A DNA stretch of 64,000 nt, taken from the IMG/VR virus record IMGVR_UViG_2778261375_000003; one strand, written 5' to 3'. The position numbers were made by a program, and so were the translations under genes. Below are positions 3,348-27,002 of the stretch, piece by piece. Positions within the stretch are counted from its first letter, which is position 1, and each line of letters starts with the position of its first letter. The notes under the pieces are model-generated. The model was not told the DNA's origin and did no database searches. It saw only the letters and a program-made list of their open reading frames with translations. The stretch comes from a virus. Its lineage: Duplodnaviria; Heunggongvirae; Uroviricota; Caudoviricetes.

Positions 3348-3700
3348 TGAAAAAGTGGATTGTTATTGGACTCTGTTTCCTTCCGGGGTTCGCATTTGCT
3401 GCGAATCCTGGCGGTGTCACGCTTCAGTGTGGTGGCTACAAATTAGAGTTGATTCCTGATTCATTGTTCAGGATTAATGGTGAGACAGTTACCTCCCAGA
3501 AAATCAAAACGCTCGGCAACGGTAATGGAATGAAGGCGGATATGGGGCTTATGCCAGCCAAAGACGGTAACAATTACGGTTTCGAGTTCATTCGCCGTCC
3601 GGGTACCGAAACGCGATTCCTGAATGTCCAGCTTCTGCAGAACAGCATGGATGCGCCGAAAATCATCGGATCTTTCCCTTGTAAAAAAGTGGCTGGGTGA
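3347..3700 (+). CDS. secreted/periplasmic protein with N-terminal signal peptide (moron-like)
   Basis: N-terminus MKKWIVIGLCFLPGFAFAANP looks like a cleavable signal peptide; start overlaps hub stop; not a standard baseplate component. Confidence 0.5.
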   Translation: MKKWIVIGLCFLPGFAFAANPGGVTLQCGGYKLELIPDSLFRINGETVTSQKIKTLGNGNGMKADMGLMPAKDGNNYGFEFIRRPGTETRFLNVQLLQNSMDAPKIIGSFPCKKVAG

Positions 3701-20886: not shown

Positions 20887-21426
20887 CTACCACCAACTGC
20901 TAGCTTTCTTCTCTCTAGCTTTTCCTTCGCTTTGCAGTAAATCTTTACTTCCTGTAGAAATATTTCTATTTGCATCAGCCTCAGACTGAATTACATCTGT
21001 CTTAGCTGCTCTCTCCTTCAACTCCTGCTCTATAAAATCGTTTTCTCGCTGGACACGAGCCGCTTTTGCTTGCAGTTCGAGCTTCATGCTTTCGAGTTGC
21101 AGCTTGCGAAGCTCATCCTCATAAGCTTGATCTCGCTTCTTGTCATTTGCTAGCTCGGCTTCTCGTTTCGCTCTACGTTCATTTTCTGCAGCAACACGCT
21201 GTTTTTCGCGTGCAGCAGCGGCAGATGCTGCTTTTTCTCTTCTAATACGTTCAGCTTGTGCTTGTTGGCGAATAAGTTCTTTTCTGGCATCCTCAGCTTG
21301 CTGCTCTTTAGCTCGCCCTTCATTTTCCGCTTGAGCAATAGCAGCAATTTGACTTTGCAACGAGTTAGCCAAGGCAGTGCCTACACTAAACGTAGAAAAG
21401 ATTAGAAATAAAATAATTTTATTCAT
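20887..21426 (-). CDS. secreted coiled-coil protein, Ala/Glu/Arg/Gln-rich
   Basis: N-terminal signal-like segment MNKIILFLIFSTFSVGTALA; remainder is low-complexity charged helix. Confidence 0.5.
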   Translation of the reverse strand: MNKIILFLIFSTFSVGTALANSLQSQIAAIAQAENEGRAKEQQAEDARKELIRQQAQAERIRREKAASAAAAREKQRVAAENERRAKREAELANDKKRDQAYEDELRKLQLESMKLELQAKAARVQRENDFIEQELKERAAKTDVIQSEADANRNISTGSKDLLQSEGKAREKKASSWW

Positions 21427-21429
21427 AAA

Positions 21430-21951
21430 TTATTTCTTTTCTGGACAAGTAGCATTTGGCTGAATTCGAGTTTCATTATCTTTAGTTGAAATAAGCACAG
21501 CAAGCCCCGTTGTAAACTGGCATGCTTTACCAACTTGAGTTGAAGTGAACACCTTAGTTCCTTCTTTATAAGTCAGTGAAACACCTTCAACAATTGTTTT
21601 ATCACTAACCAAAGAACCAGCCGCTGCACCAAGAGCCGCACCACCAGTACCGCCAGCTACAGCACCCAGTGTCGATGTGCCTTTAACATTATAACCGGCA
21701 ACGCCCCCAGCAACAGCTCCCAGTACCGCACCAAATGTCTGTGCCGCTTCTTTATTAGCTTTATTATCAACTTTCACTTTAGCTGGAAGCACAGAGATAA
21801 TATTGACTGTCTTTGTTTCCTGCTTCGAATTCAATTGAGCGGTATCATAAACATCGGCAGCATAATCAGCACCGCTAGATTGACACCCAGAAAGAAGAAT
21901 TGCAGATACAACAAGAGCGCATAAAGTATACTTTTTAGACATAAGAATCAT
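21430..21951 (-). CDS. glycine-zipper lipoprotein
   Basis: Lipobox-like LLSGC near the N-terminus; GxxxG-rich segment GAVLGAVAGGVAGY...GAVAGGTGGAALGAAAG. Confidence 0.55.
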   Translation of the reverse strand: MILMSKKYTLCALVVSAILLSGCQSSGADYAADVYDTAQLNSKQETKTVNIISVLPAKVKVDNKANKEAAQTFGAVLGAVAGGVAGYNVKGTSTLGAVAGGTGGAALGAAAGSLVSDKTIVEGVSLTYKEGTKVFTSTQVGKACQFTTGLAVLISTKDNETRIQPNATCPEKK

Positions 21952-22232
21952 CCCAGAAAAACAAAAACCGGCGAGAAGTTACCACGAGAACGGAAAGTAA
22001 ACAAGAATACTCCCATTGACTTATATCAATTAATCAACTTTTTATAAGCTATCCCTAACTTATTGTGTATAGCTGAAAAGTCAGAGACAAGTTCACCATC
22101 TGCATTATTTCTTAAGTTAATAGTTTATTGCTAACTTAATTTATGTATCGACTATTGATATCCATCTTAAAGTTACAATATCCCTCTGCATTATTTTTCA
22201 TCACAAATAATATATCTATTGCACTACACTCA

Positions 22233-22249
22233 CCTGCTCTAATAAATTT
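22233..22249 (+). promoter_or_regulatory. C1-type repressor operator upstream of the icd-ant operon
   Basis: CCTGCTCTAATAAATTT, 15/17 match to the P1 C1 operator consensus ATTGCTCTAATAAATTT (consensus from memory). Confidence 0.5.
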
Positions 22250-22563
22250 GTATTTTTAAGTCACAAATGCTATCTTTTCGCATCATATTGACCTTTTAAT
22301 CGTTCAGGCTTATAGTTCCGCCGTCGTAGCAAATTCTGCGACCGGGTTTAGCAGCCTGAATGATTGTGCGGACAGCCGCAGATATCCGATATTGCGGTAT
22401 TTTTGTGTCCGTAAAACCGTGTTACGCCCAAATTATGGTGGGGCGTGATGGGGAGGCTTCGGCCTGCTGGTTTCACAATCGCCAGTCTGCTAACCCCGTC
22501 ACGTCCTGCCACCTGTTTAGCAGCGGGTAGCAGGTTGTTAAACCTGATTGTGAGGCCGTAACT

Positions 22564-22785
22564 ATGGTTAATGCCAATCCTTGCGCACGCCAAGAATTCA
22601 TCTGGCGTTTCTATTCCTGTAAAAAACACCACTATCACTTCGTCATCGCAGCAACAGAAGACGAAGCACGCTCTCAATTGCCTGATGGCCCCTGCATTTT
22701 TACTGCCCGTTTTTCAACTAACTCGCGCAATTCACTTAGTTACTGGAACCTCCCCTTCTCTGCCGACGTTCAGGGGGATTTATGA
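22564..22785 (+). CDS. icd: Icd-like small protein
   Basis: 73-aa ORF whose stop overlaps the antirepressor start (ATGA), as I recall for P1 icd-ant1. Confidence 0.4.
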   Translation: MVNANPCARQEFIWRFYSCKKHHYHFVIAATEDEARSQLPDGPCIFTARFSTNSRNSLSYWNLPFSADVQGDL

Positions 22786-23825
22786 AAAAACCTCTCGTCA
22801 CCCGTAATGAAATAGCCGAAGCGATCGCCCTGCATACAACCTGTATGCCGACACGGGAGATCCCCGGCGCAATTGCCAACTATTTCATGATAACCAGACG
22901 TTTTTATACCCGAACAGATAAGGCTGTGATCAACAAGCTACTGATAGCCGAGATCAGGGATTATTTGATTGAACAAGGACGTCTACGTTACGCAACAGTG
23001 GCAGCAGAAATGAGAAAGGAGGCGCGCAGAATGACCGGTAATAATTTGAATGTTGAAAAACCAGCACCTGTTGCTTCAGCTACGCCATCACCAGCTGTGA
23101 ATGTTATCTCCAACACTGGAGACACAATCGACAGCCAGACACTGTTAAAGATGGTCAATGAAGCTCGTAAGTTATGTGGGGAACCAGAGGTTCGGAACAA
23201 CAAATTCATCGAAAAAATACTCGACGAATTAGAAGGTGAGGACGGTTACACAAAAAGTGCAACCGTGCCGCCAGGTGGCGGTACGCCTATGGTTGTCATA
23301 ACCATGACCTACAAACAAGCCCTGCGAGTCGCCGCACGCGAATCAAAAGCCGTCCGCCGTTCGCTGATCGACAAACTGGAAGAATTGCAGCAGGCAAACT
23401 CCCCTGCCCCATCGATCCCCCAAACATTACCAGAAGCTCTACGCCTGGCTGCCGAGTTGGCAGAACAGAAAATGCAGCTGGAACAACAGCTGGTGGCCGC
23501 CGCTCCTAAAGTCGATTTTGCCGACCGGGTATCAGTGGCTAATGGAATCCTGATCGGGAACTTTGCAAAGGTCGTTGGACTTAAGCAAAACGCCCTTTTC
23601 TCATGGTTGCGCCAGAACGGCATTCTCATGGCTTTTGGTGCGCGCAAAAACGTACCGCGCCAACAGTACATCAACGCCGGGTATTTCACGGTGAAAGAAG
23701 TGGTGCTGGATGATGAAAATGGCTACCAGATACGGCTGACGCCCCAATTAACGGGTAAAGGCCAGCAGTGGTTAACTCGCAAGCTACTTGATGCTGGTTT
23801 GTTAAAACCAGTAGCAATAGGTTAA
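22782..23825 (+). CDS. ant1: antirepressor with KilA-C-like C-terminal domain
   Basis: C-terminal PEALRLAAELAEQK...YFT...TGKGQQWL block is repeated in the next gene; typical phage antirepressor architecture. Confidence 0.6.
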   Translation: MKKPLVTRNEIAEAIALHTTCMPTREIPGAIANYFMITRRFYTRTDKAVINKLLIAEIRDYLIEQGRLRYATVAAEMRKEARRMTGNNLNVEKPAPVASATPSPAVNVISNTGDTIDSQTLLKMVNEARKLCGEPEVRNNKFIEKILDELEGEDGYTKSATVPPGGGTPMVVITMTYKQALRVAARESKAVRRSLIDKLEELQQANSPAPSIPQTLPEALRLAAELAEQKMQLEQQLVAAAPKVDFADRVSVANGILIGNFAKVVGLKQNALFSWLRQNGILMAFGARKNVPRQQYINAGYFTVKEVVLDDENGYQIRLTPQLTGKGQQWLTRKLLDAGLLKPVAIG

Positions 23826-25833: not shown

Positions 25834-26538
25834 ATGTTGAACCGAAGAACATTTAATGTATTCTGCGATGAATCCTGTCACCTACTAAATGATCATAATA
25901 AAGTCATGGTATTGGGTGCGCTTTGGTGTCCCGGCACTATCACAAAAAAAATTGCTAGAGACATCAAGGAATTAAAATTAAAACACAATCTAAAACCTGA
26001 TTTCGAAATCAAGTGGACTAAAGTATCTGCGTCCAAAGTTGAATTTTACTTAGATGTCGTAGATTACTTCTTCAGCAACCCTGCATTGCGCTTTAGAGGT
26101 GTTGTTGTTCCTGATAAAGAGCAACTGGACCATGCTCGATTCCATCAAGATCATAATACTTTCTATTATAAGATGTTTTTTTATGTCTTAAAAAACATAA
26201 TAGAAAGTAACAACACATACAATATCTACCTAGATATAAAAGATACTTTAGGTATTGAAAAAATTGAGAAATTAAGAGGGGTTCTTCACAATGATCGCTA
26301 TGATTACAATCATGAGTCGATAAACAGAATTCAACATATACGATCTCATGAAGTGCAGCAATTGCAGCTAACGGATCTTTTCATTGGCGCGTTAGGCTAC
26401 GTTCATCGAGGAATGAATAGCAACGCGGGAAAAATCCAAGTCATAAACAGAATAAAATCACATACAAACAGGGAGTTACTAAAAAGTACTCTTCCAACAG
26501 AAAGTAAATTTAATATTTTCGTGTGGGAGGCTCGCTGA
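25834..26538 (+). CDS. DUF3800-like protein (N-terminal FCDES motif), AT-rich island gene 1
   Basis: 234-aa ORF with GGAG ribosome-binding site; markedly AT-rich; N-terminus FNVFCDESCH resembles the DUF3800 xDESG start (from memory). Confidence 0.55.
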   Translation: MLNRRTFNVFCDESCHLLNDHNKVMVLGALWCPGTITKKIARDIKELKLKHNLKPDFEIKWTKVSASKVEFYLDVVDYFFSNPALRFRGVVVPDKEQLDHARFHQDHNTFYYKMFFYVLKNIIESNNTYNIYLDIKDTLGIEKIEKLRGVLHNDRYDYNHESINRIQHIRSHEVQQLQLTDLFIGALGYVHRGMNSNAGKIQVINRIKSHTNRELLKSTLPTESKFNIFVWEAR

Positions 26539-27002
26539 TGCTTCAAATGCCAGATTTATTGTACTTCAATGGAAGTTGGCAAGAGTATATAGACGATGTA
26601 TATGATGTTGTTAGAGAAGATATTTTAATATCTAATATAACGTTTAAGGGTCTCCCTGTTCGATTACGTTATTCACCGGAATATAATGGGAAAGAATTCG
26701 GATTTTGGCATTTAGTATCAGAGGGAAAAATAGAAGAAGAACGTATACCCGATCTTGAACGGTGCAAGCGAATTCGCTGGATCGCGCACATGATAAGGAA
26801 TTATAACCATTGCGATATATCATGTTGGTCTGAAAGACGAGGACCAACTGAAGAGTGGGTAATCTGGAATGAGTGTGAAAACTACGTTGTTGTGCTATCC
26901 GCACGTAGAGACTATTGGCTTCTCAAAACAGCCTATGTTGTAACCTATGACAGTAAAATCAGAACACTCAAACAAAGCAGAAAAAGAGCACTTGGGACAT
27001 AA
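26538..27002 (+). CDS. hypothetical protein, AT-rich island gene 2
   Basis: Start taken at ATG 26538, overlapping the upstream stop as TGATG, with GGGAGG ribosome-binding site; Cys/His-containing; no motif I can name. Confidence 0.5.
   Translation: MLQMPDLLYFNGSWQEYIDDVYDVVREDILISNITFKGLPVRLRYSPEYNGKEFGFWHLVSEGKIEEERIPDLERCKRIRWIAHMIRNYNHCDISCWSERRGPTEEWVIWNECENYVVVLSARRDYWLLKTAYVVTYDSKIRTLKQSRKRALGT

What the first reader, a model, noticed from the sequence alone, without database searches (positions are those of the whole stretch)
22250..22785. Structured leader with complementary elements upstream of icd-ant, consistent with a c4-type antisense RNA
The 300 bp between the operator and icd contain complementary segments (for example TCTGCTAAC at about 22488 and GTTTAGCAG at about 22516), and icd is translationally coupled to the antirepressor. 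This fits the immunity-I arrangement in which a processed antisense RNA blocks icd/ant translation, but I cannot place the RNA ends from sequence alone.
Basis: inference. Interest (0 to 1): 0.4.

Follow-up and report, generated by a model that had tools for sequence, protein, structure and literature searches.

The report
P7-type c4 antisense immunity RNA
This stretch is the well-known immunity-I control region of a P1/P7-family phage-plasmid, whose 77-base c4 antisense RNA is identical to phage P7's and is predicted to block translation of icd and the antirepressor; it is real but ordinary.

Summary
Rfam places a C4 antisense RNA at 22431-22516 (69.6 bits, threshold 45). It also places the companion c4-a1b1 target motif at 22310-22362 (55.5 bits, threshold 46.7). 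The region is 99.0% identical to phage P7. Transferring the P7 annotation puts the RNA ends at 22437-22513 (77 nt), and this sequence is base-for-base identical to P7 c4.

The two recognition elements of C4 are b' (22473-22480) and a' (22487-22493). Each has an exact complement upstream (a1 22348-22354, b1 22362-22369) and downstream (a2 22517-22523, b2 22546-22553). Element b2 overlaps the icd Shine-Dalgarno sequence. The icd stop overlaps the ant1 start (ATGA).

P1 differs from P7 and the window by compensatory changes in all six elements, so this element has P7-type immunity specificity. Among 200 related loci, 2 a-types and 7 b-types reassort (12 combinations). In 73 of 77 distinct leaders the loops and all four targets match exactly, which is strong natural covariation for the pairing.

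Processing by RNase P and repression in trans rest on the literature and were not tested here. Verdict: already known, low interest. The multi-allelic specificity set is a modest side observation.

The parts
22233..22249 (+). C1 repressor operator Op(c4), formerly Op51: CCTGCTCTAATAAATTT
   Evidence: Transferred from the P7 annotation (window = L001 coordinate + 20699) and the P1 annotation. 16 of 17 bases match P7; position 1 differs.
22247..22276 (+). Promoter P2c4 (formerly P51a), overlapping the operator; -10 TATCTT at 22271-22276
   Evidence: Position transferred from the P1 annotation through alignment A1. One base (22265) differs from P7.
22288..22316 (+). Promoter P1c4 (formerly P51b): TTGACC, 17-nt spacer, TATAGT
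   Evidence: Found independently by the consensus scan (10 of 12 matches). It coincides with the annotated P1 promoter and is invariant between P1, P7 and the window.
22310..22362 (+). c4-a1b1 RNA motif (Rfam RF03163): two small hairpins in the 5' part of the transcript, the second presenting a1 in its loop
   Evidence: 55.5 bits against a gathering score of 46.7, E = 2.7e-11.
22348..22354 (+). a1 target element TTAGCAG, complement of a'
   Evidence: (D5, I1). Covaries with a' in 16 of 16 aligned sequences. Exact in 191 of 194 loci.
22362..22369 (+). b1 target element GATTGTG(C), complement of b'
   Evidence: (D4, I14). Covaries with b' in 16 of 16 aligned sequences. Exact in 192 of 194 loci.
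22437..22513 (+). Mature C4 antisense RNA, 77 nt (ends placed by homology): a long closing stem, a UUCG-capped hairpin, a hairpin whose loop carries b', and a single-stranded segment carrying a'
   Evidence: Rfam C4 at 22431-22516, 69.6 bits. P7 misc_RNA c4 maps to these coordinates. Identical to P7 c4, 5 differences from P1. Fold -45.4 kcal/mol, z = -5.1.
22473..22480 (+). b' recognition element UCACAAUC in the loop of the third helix (P7 type)
   Evidence: Unpaired in the predicted fold. Exact complement of b2 over 8 nt and of b1 over 7 nt (I9 and I14).
22487..22493 (+). a' recognition element CUGCUAA in the single-stranded joint (P7 type)
   Evidence: Unpaired in the predicted fold. Exact complement of a2 and a1 over 7 nt; 14 of 16 bases with the a1 region (I16 and I1).
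22517..22523 (+). a2 target element TTAGCAG in the icd-ant mRNA leader, 4 nt after the C4 3' end
   Evidence: 100% paired with compensatory changes. Exact in 198 of 199 loci.
22546..22553 (+). b2 target element GATTGTGA. Its last two bases are the first two of the icd Shine-Dalgarno GAGG (22552-22555), 8 nt before the ATG
   Evidence: (I9). 6 of 7 pairs show double-sided changes. Exact in 197 of 199 loci.
22564..22785 (+). icd, 73 aa, cell-division inhibitor; the gene whose translation C4 blocks
   Evidence: ORF. NCBIfam phage_ICD_like 52.7 bits against a cut-off of 25. 72 of 73 residues identical to P7 Icd.
22782..23825 (+). ant1, 347 aa, antirepressor with a KilAC domain. Its start overlaps the icd stop (ATGA). 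The in-frame ant2 start is at 23031, after AGGAGG
   Evidence: ORF. Pfam ANT PF03374, 106.4 bits. P7 and P1 annotation. 310 of 348 residues identical to P7 Ant1 and 321 of 347 to P1 Ant1.

Best explanation
This is the immI (immunity-I) operon leader of a P1/P7-family phage-plasmid. Transcription starts at two promoters, one of them overlapped by a C1 repressor operator, and yields a single c4-icd-ant1/2 transcript. A 77-nt RNA, C4 (22437-22513), is cut out of this transcript. Per the literature its 5' end is made by host RNase P. C4 folds into a three-helix scaffold that exposes two short elements, b' and a'. These pair with b2 and a2 on icd-ant transcripts, made either by the resident prophage or by a superinfecting phage of the same type. 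Pairing at b2 covers the icd ribosome-binding site, so icd is not translated. Because ant1 is coupled to icd, the antirepressor is not made either, C1 stays active, and lysogeny and superinfection immunity hold. The a1/b1 copies upstream of C4 are a second matched target set on the same transcript, and their role is not established. The window carries the P7 alleles of all six elements, so it should be homoimmune with P7 and heteroimmune with P1 at immI. Shown here: family membership, RNA identity with P7, complementarity, overlap of b2 with the SD, gene overlap, and covariation. Taken from the literature and not tested here: processing, action in trans, and the coupling of ant expression to icd translation.
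For: Rfam matches C4 at 69.6 bits (threshold 45) and c4-a1b1 at 55.5 bits (threshold 46.7). The region is 99.0% identical to P7 over 22200-22800, with the annotated order Op(c4), c4, icd, ant1/ant2, then Op(rep)-kilA. C4 is identical to P7 c4. None of the six differences from P7 falls in c4, a1, b1, a2, b2 or the icd SD/ATG. The predicted fold leaves a' and b' unpaired. P1 differs from P7 and the window by compensatory changes at a', b' and all four targets. Predicted duplex energies favour cognate over non-cognate pairs: -33.1 and -32.3 kcal/mol against -16.1 to -24.7. In 16 sampled leaders both target sets pair 100%, with double-sided changes at 8 of 14 pairs, while slid controls pair 25-52%. 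Among 200 loci the exact complement is present at a2 in 198 of 199, b2 in 197 of 199, a1 in 191 of 194 and b1 in 192 of 194. 73 of 77 distinct leaders are fully matched, and non-cognate b targets occur in 2 of 462 comparisons. Literature support: C4 is about 77 nt, is processed by RNase P, and b' occludes the RBS (PMC5320573, PMC2190699). c4 RNA blocks antirepressor synthesis and underlies P1/P7 heteroimmunity (PMC12197685, PMC8546580, PMC8198154, PMC6906374).
Against: Nothing in the sequence contradicts this. The limits are that no expression or processing data exist for this particular element. The RNA ends are placed by homology only. The scaffold is invariant among relatives, so its helices get no covariation support from this sample; their support comes from the Rfam model. 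The claim that blocked icd translation causes premature transcription termination ahead of ant is my recollection of Biere, Citron and Schuster 1992, and I could not read that paper here. The Ant1 protein is a P1/P7 mosaic (89% identical to P7, 93% to P1), so the downstream effector is not strictly P7's.
Confidence: 0.95

Rival explanations
1. c4 is a protein-coding gene. The 56-aa ORF at 22360-22530, which spans the RNA, would encode a small repressor protein. This was the historical view, and some GenBank records still annotate a CDS there.
For: An ATG-initiated ORF of 56 aa exists on the + strand. The JL22 and phi456 records annotate a 'hypothetical protein' at the homologous place, and record X15639 lists c4 as a CDS.
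Against: The ORF is not conserved among relatives. Its start lies at -164, -77, -71, -44, -32 or -2 relative to the C4 5' end, and its stop at +40, +91, +121 or +346, depending on the variant. The P1-type b' (CACTAAC) puts an in-frame TAA in the loop. The ATG itself lies inside b1 and is lost in other b-types. There is no Pfam or NCBIfam hit. The variation is confined to positions that covary as RNA pairs.
Confidence: 0.01
2. The complementary segments form only a cis-acting leader structure, an intramolecular attenuator that hides the icd ribosome-binding site within the same transcript. No discrete trans-acting small RNA would be involved.
For: All six elements lie on one transcript. The whole-leader fold is much more stable than shuffles (z = -5.2) and predicts long-range pairing around C4. 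No intrinsic terminator follows C4.
Against: In the whole-leader fold C4 keeps its own compact structure with a' and b' unpaired. The predicted long-range helix (22343-22358 with 22531-22546) is altered in the CGTAAGT-type leaders. The literature reports that c4 acts in trans and is excised by RNase P (PMC5320573, PMC8546580, PMC12197685). Contigs that carry two C4 copies always carry two different b' types (5 of 5 pairs), which makes sense only if the RNAs act in trans and must not cross-react.
Confidence: 0.03
3. The complementarity is a chance occurrence in an otherwise unremarkable intergenic leader.
For: The individual elements are only 7-8 nt long. GATTGTG occurs 7 times and CTGCTAA 6 times in the window.
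Against: The composite a-b pattern occurs 3 times against 0.04 expected, and all 3 are in this locus. Rfam E-values are about 1e-11. Covariation is perfect across variants.
Confidence: 0.005

Closest known systems
Phage P7 c4 antisense RNA and immI operon (AF503408, c4 at 51057-51133)
   Same: The 77-nt RNA is identical, as are a1, b1, a2, b2 and the icd SD/ATG. The gene order is the same: operator, c4, icd, ant1/2, kilA, repL. The upstream neighbours are the same (upf50.0, upf50.5).
   Different: There are six substitutions in 601 bp, one of them at position 1 of the C1 operator and one in icd. Ant1 is only 89% identical and 347 rather than 348 aa. The surrounding genome is a P1/P7 mosaic and matches no collection record above about 98% over 25 kb.
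Phage P1 c4 antisense RNA and immI operon (AF234172, c4 at 48343-48419)
   Same: The scaffold, promoters, spacing, icd coupling and mechanism are the same. The region is 95% identical.
   Different: There are five base differences in C4 (positions 41, 43, 54, 55, 61), with matching changes in a1, b1, a2 and b2. The specificity is therefore different, giving heteroimmunity. P1 has simABC upstream where the window has the P7-type genes.
Rfam clan CL00128 C4-like RNAs outside the P1 group, for example in Acinetobacter baumannii (PMC5320573), and locus L016 from an Achromobacter MAG
   Same: The three-helix scaffold is the same. In L016 matched targets again lie on both sides, and b2 overlaps the SD of the downstream gene.
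   Different: The loop sequences, and in L016 the b' loop length, differ. The downstream genes differ and no icd-ant was recognised. The host element is different, an integrative island carrying an int-alpA RNA.
Phage P22 sar antisense RNA (PMC12197685)
   Same: It is a small phage RNA that blocks antirepressor (ant) translation by pairing at the ribosome-binding site and so supports lysogeny.
   Different: sar is transcribed from the opposite strand of ant and is fully complementary to it. C4 is encoded on the same strand, upstream of its target, is excised from the same transcript, and recognises its target through two short loop elements. The two RNAs are not homologous.

Membership tests
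C4 antisense RNA (Rfam RF01695) | Covariance-model score at or above the curated gathering score, over the full model length | tested here: met
   69.6 bits against 45, model positions 1-87 of 87, E = 1.7e-11. The match is expected, because the sequence equals that of P7, a founding member.
C4 antisense RNA (Rfam RF01695) | Three-helix fold (long closing stem, tetraloop hairpin, second hairpin) that leaves the two recognition elements single-stranded | tested here: met
   The MFE and centroid folds agree, at -45.4 kcal/mol with z = -5.1. b' lies in the 9-nt loop and a' in the 7-nt joint. The helices are invariant in relatives, so this sample gives no covariation evidence for or against them.
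P1/P7 immI antisense control | a' and b' are complementary to a2 and b2 in the downstream mRNA, with b2 at the icd ribosome-binding site | tested here: met
   7-nt and 8-nt exact complements. b2 (22546-22553) overlaps GAGG (22552-22555), 8 nt before the ATG. Covariation.
c4-a1b1 motif (Rfam RF03163) | A second copy of both targets upstream of C4, within a conserved two-hairpin motif | tested here: met
   55.5 bits against 46.7. a1 is at 22348-22354 and b1 at 22362-22369. Covariation with a' and b'.
P1/P7 immI antisense control | Operon context: C1-controlled operator and promoters, then c4, then icd overlapping ant1/ant2 | tested here: met
   The operator, both promoters, icd (NCBIfam Icd-like), ant1 (Pfam ANT) and the ATGA overlap are all present.
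P1/P7 immI antisense control | C4 is excised from the precursor as a discrete 77 +/- 1 nt RNA, with its 5' end made by RNase P | not testable with these tools
   Only the sequence identity to P7 c4 and the GGU start after AUUAU can be shown. Processing is known from the literature (PMC5320573, PMC2190699).
P1/P7 immI antisense control | C4 acts in trans to repress icd/ant and confers type-specific superinfection immunity | not testable with these tools
   Literature only (PMC12197685, PMC8546580, PMC6906374). Indirect support comes from contigs with two C4 copies, which always carry different b' types.
P7 immunity specificity, as opposed to P1 | a' = CUGCUAA and b' = CACAAUC with matching targets (P1 has CUGUCAA and CACUAAC) | tested here: met
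   Alignment of the window, P7 and P1; element table.

The most novel reading that the evidence does not exclude
The window's c4 locus is one allele (a-P7 / b-P7, the commonest at 50 of 200) of a multi-allelic, two-element RNA 'address code' in P1-like phage-plasmids. At least 2 a-types and 7 b-types reassort into at least 12 combinations, far beyond the classical P1/P7 pair. The loop and both target copies stay matched even though the six elements are interleaved on the DNA. Some genomes carry a second c4 module with a different b-type. If this has not been described, it predicts many mutually heteroimmune immI types and a recombination or conversion process that keeps three dispersed sites matched. 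I found no description in the searchable literature, but I could not read key papers such as Gilcrease and Casjens 2018 on phage D6.
Probability: 0.35. Interest if true: 0.4.

Novelty: already known. Interest (0 to 1): 0.12.

Why it matters
For this window it matters little beyond annotation. It identifies the element as a P1/P7-family phage-plasmid with P7-type immI specificity and gives exact coordinates for an RNA gene that several GenBank records still miss or annotate as a hypothetical protein. It predicts the element's immunity behaviour: it should exclude P7-type but not P1-type antirepressor expression. The broader survey suggests that immI specificity is much more polymorphic in nature than the two textbook types. 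That bears on which P1-like plasmids, many of them carrying resistance genes, can coexist in or superinfect the same cell.

Tried and rejected
(1) My first three collection scans used patterns with one N too many in the b' loop. Their near-empty results are void. The corrected pattern was first verified on the window and on fetched loci and then returned 120+ viral and 59 metagenome loci. By accident it found a longer-loop C4 in an Achromobacter MAG (L016).

(2) I tried to read the primary papers: the P1 genome paper PMC523184, Riedel 1993 PMC204598, Citron and Schuster 1992 PMC312442, and Gilcrease and Casjens 2018 by DOI. None is held, so the mechanism is cited through secondary open-access sources.

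(3) The protein-coding reading of the 56-aa ORF over c4 was rejected because the ORF is not conserved and has no family hits. The 109-aa minus-strand ORF at 22348-22677 was disregarded, since it is antisense to icd and c4.

(4) The long-range helix in the whole-leader fold (22343-22358 with 22531-22546) was not adopted. Its 3' arm changes in the CGTAAGT-type leaders without compensation in the a1 region.

(5) RNAduplex energies are given only as a relative cognate versus non-cognate comparison. The predicted duplexes open the C4 hairpin and are not a model of the real complex.

(6) No intrinsic terminator was found after C4. This fits excision from a longer transcript rather than termination.

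Full report
**1. What is at the coordinates.** The interval 22250-22785 lies between a leftward lipoprotein gene (21430-21951) and a rightward 347-aa ORF (22782-23825). A gathering-threshold Rfam scan of the whole window gave five hits. Three are tRNAs far away and two lie inside the finding. One is the C4 antisense RNA (RF01695) at 22431-22516 on the + strand, with 69.6 bits against a gathering score of 45, E = 1.7e-11, over the full model. The other is the 'a1, b1 targets of C4' motif (RF03163) at 22310-22362 on the + strand, with 55.5 bits against 46.7.

**2. The observation itself.** TCTGCTAAC is at 22486-22494 and is unique in the window. GTTTAGCAG is at 22515-22523 and also at 22346-22354. 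Exact complementarity between them is 7 nt (CTGCTAA with TTAGCAG, I16). Both target sequences recur upstream as direct repeats (D4 and D5). The composite pattern TTAGCAG-N(5-30)-GATTGTG occurs three times in 64 kb on both strands, against 0.04 expected. The three sites are the upstream targets, the downstream targets, and the complement of the RNA itself. The RNA segment folds at -45.4 kcal/mol, with z = -5.1 and no shuffle as good. Both recognition elements are unpaired in that fold. The icd stop and the ant1 start overlap as ATGA at 22782-22785.

**3. Identity of the element.** The 601 bp around the finding are 99.0% identical to phage P7 (AF503408) and 95.1% identical to P1. The P7 record annotates, in order:
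- a C1-controlled operator
- c4 as a misc_RNA
- icd
- ant1 with the in-frame ant2
- a second operator
- kilA

The upstream genes upf50.0 and upf50.5 also match the window. The P1 record adds the two promoters and names the targets a1, b1, a2 and b2.

Transferring coordinates gives:

| Feature | Window coordinates |
|---|---|
| Operator | 22233-22249 |
| P2c4 promoter | 22247-22276 |
| P1c4 promoter | 22288-22316 |
| a1 | 22348-22354 |
| b1 | 22362-22369 |
| C4 RNA (77 nt) | 22437-22513 |
| a2 | 22517-22523 |
| b2 | 22546-22553 |
| icd | 22564-22785 |
| ant1 | 22782-23825 |
| ant2 | starts at 23031 |

The consensus scan found the P1c4 promoter independently. The 77-mer is identical to P7 c4. 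The six differences from P7 in 22200-22800 lie at 22225, 22231, 22233, 22265, 22420 and 22778. None is in c4, a target, or the icd start signals. Icd matches NCBIfam 'Icd-like' and is 72 of 73 residues identical to P7 Icd. Ant1 carries the Pfam ANT/KilAC domain. Over 25 kb the window matches JL22 at 97.3% (98% covered) and P1 at 97.2% (92% covered) among phage records, and an E. coli plasmid best at 98.2%. It is therefore a mosaic member of the P1/P7 group (Punavirus), not P7 itself.

**4. Specificity.** Aligning the window, P7 and P1 shows that the leader is almost invariant except at the six elements. P1 has CUGUCAA and CACUAAC where P7 and the window have CUGCUAA and CACAAUC, and all four targets change in step. 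The window therefore carries P7-type immI specificity. Predicted duplex energies rank cognate above non-cognate combinations: -33.1 and -32.3 kcal/mol against -16.1 to -24.7. This comparison is relative only.

**5. Independent test by natural variation.** The plasmid collection holds 618 records with this leader, of which 178 are at 99% identity or more. I sampled 13 of them across the identity range without knowing their element types and aligned them with the window, P7 and P1.
- Two a-types and four b-types appeared. In every sequence the loop and both target copies had switched together.
- Pair counting gave 100% standard pairs for C4 with a2/b2 and for C4 with a1/b1. Double-sided changes occurred at 8 of 14 pairs. 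Only 25-52% of cells paired when partners were slid by 1-3 columns.
- The C4 scaffold never varied apart from one G-C to G-U change, so this sample says nothing for or against its helices.

A corrected pattern scan then brought in 120 viral and 59 metagenome loci.
- Among 200 C4 copies there are 2 a-types and 7 b-types in 12 of the 14 possible combinations. The window's combination is the commonest, at 50.
- Exact complements are present at a2 in 198 of 199, b2 in 197 of 199, a1 in 191 of 194 and b1 in 192 of 194.
- Collapsing duplicates leaves 77 distinct leaders, 73 of them fully matched. Non-cognate b targets appear in only 2 of 462 comparisons.
- Variation within the 77-mer is concentrated at positions 39-44, 54-55 and 61.

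These counts are of sequences, not independent events. Still, the number of combinations means many separate exchanges.

**6. Mechanism.**
- Directly shown here: b2 overlaps the icd Shine-Dalgarno sequence (GAGG 22552-22555, ATG 22564). icd and ant1 overlap. A C1 operator overlaps the upstream promoter. The pairing partners covary.
- From the literature: C4 is a 77 +/- 1 nt RNA excised from a longer transcript, with its 5' end made by RNase P. Its b' loop occludes the ribosome-binding site while a' binds upstream (PMC5320573; RNase P substrate list in PMC2190699). c4 RNA prevents antirepressor synthesis and underlies P1/P7 heteroimmunity (PMC12197685, PMC8546580, PMC8198154, PMC6906374). Both RNA motifs were defined comparatively by Weinberg et al. 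(PMC2864571).
- From my own recollection, not verifiable here: blocked icd translation leads to premature termination of transcription before ant (Biere, Citron and Schuster 1992).
- The role of a1/b1 is labelled 'putative' in the P1 record. The survey shows it is under the same matching constraint as a2/b2.

**7. Rivals.**
- The historical protein-coding reading of c4 (ORF 22360-22530, still annotated as a hypothetical protein in JL22 and phi456) is rejected. The ORF's start and stop shift from variant to variant, the P1-type loop introduces an in-frame stop, and it has no family hit.
- A purely cis-acting leader structure is unlikely. C4 keeps its own fold inside the whole-leader prediction. 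The predicted enclosing helix is not conserved. Genomes with two C4 copies always hold two different b-types, which is expected for RNAs acting in trans.
- Chance is excluded.

**8. Novelty and score.** The feature is the textbook c4 RNA, identical to P7's, with curated Rfam models for both the RNA and its upstream targets. It is already known, and the interest is low. The survey result is the only part that might be new: many immI specificity alleles, interleaved yet matched, and second modules with a different b-type. No paper in the searchable library combines c4 RNA with P1-like phage-plasmids. However, the most likely place for such a description, the D6 genome paper, could not be read. 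I therefore give it only moderate probability of being undescribed.

Noticed in passing
window 25834-27002 (+): Two overlapping ORFs directly after repL. The first is 234 aa with Pfam DUF3800 and PADLOC PDC-M04A (317.6 bits). The second is 159 aa with PADLOC PDC-M04B (174.9 bits). Together they form a candidate two-gene anti-phage defence system, sitting where P1 carries rlfA/rlfB.
   Followed up: partly
loci L022-L200: immI specificity is multi-allelic. There are 2 a' types and 7 b' types (CACAATC, CACTAAC, CATTCGT, CGTAAGT, CATGTAC, CACAAGT, CTTGAAC) in 12 combinations. The loop and both target copies match in 73 of 77 distinct leaders. The elements are interleaved on the DNA (a1 b1 b' a' a2 b2), so exchanging one set alone needs at least three exchange points. 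How this happens is unexplained.
   Followed up: partly
L036/L071, L074/L082, L033/L095, L171/L184, L194/L196: Five contigs carry two C4 copies. In all five the two copies have different b' types, and one of them is always CATGTAC. This suggests a second c4 module with non-cross-reacting specificity; PMC6799933 mentions a second c4-icd region in D6-like plasmids.
   Followed up: partly
L062, L154, L157, L173, L175: These leaders have one or two elements that do not match the C4 loops: only b2, only a1, a1+b1, only b', or only a'. They may be recombination intermediates, or chimeric assemblies of short or low-coverage metagenome contigs.
   Followed up: no
L016 3440-3665 (Achromobacter MAG contig JBEBWV010000114.1): A C4 RNA (69.3 bits) sits in an integrative island that also holds an int-alpA RNA. 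Its a' is CTGCAAA and its b' loop is one base longer (CCUUUUAC). Exact targets lie on both sides, and b2 (GTAAAAGGAG) overlaps the SD of the next ORF (ATG at 3662). This is the same architecture far outside the P1 group.
   Followed up: partly
window 22421-22429 and 22554-22562: GTTACGCCC lies in the leader just 5' of the C4 processing site. It is 8 of 9 complementary to GGCCGTAAC, which lies between the icd SD and ATG (I10). Both are nearly invariant in relatives, so covariation cannot test whether the unprocessed transcript also masks the icd start in cis.
   Followed up: no
window 20887-21951 (-): Upstream of immI the window has the P7-type genes upf50.0 (DUF5384, 147.8 bits) and the upf50.5 lipoprotein, instead of P1's simABC superimmunity genes.
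   Followed up: partly
window 44358-44430, 44436-44508, 46139-46211 (+): Three tRNA genes (74.5, 72.9 and 64.7 bits), found by the Rfam scan only.
   Followed up: no
GenBank records ON018986 (JL22) and OR339795 (phi456), homologous to window 22360-22530: Both records annotate a 'hypothetical protein' CDS across c4 and do not annotate the RNA. PLSDB gene tables for the sampled plasmids list only icd there. The RNA gene is commonly missed in annotation.
   Followed up: yes
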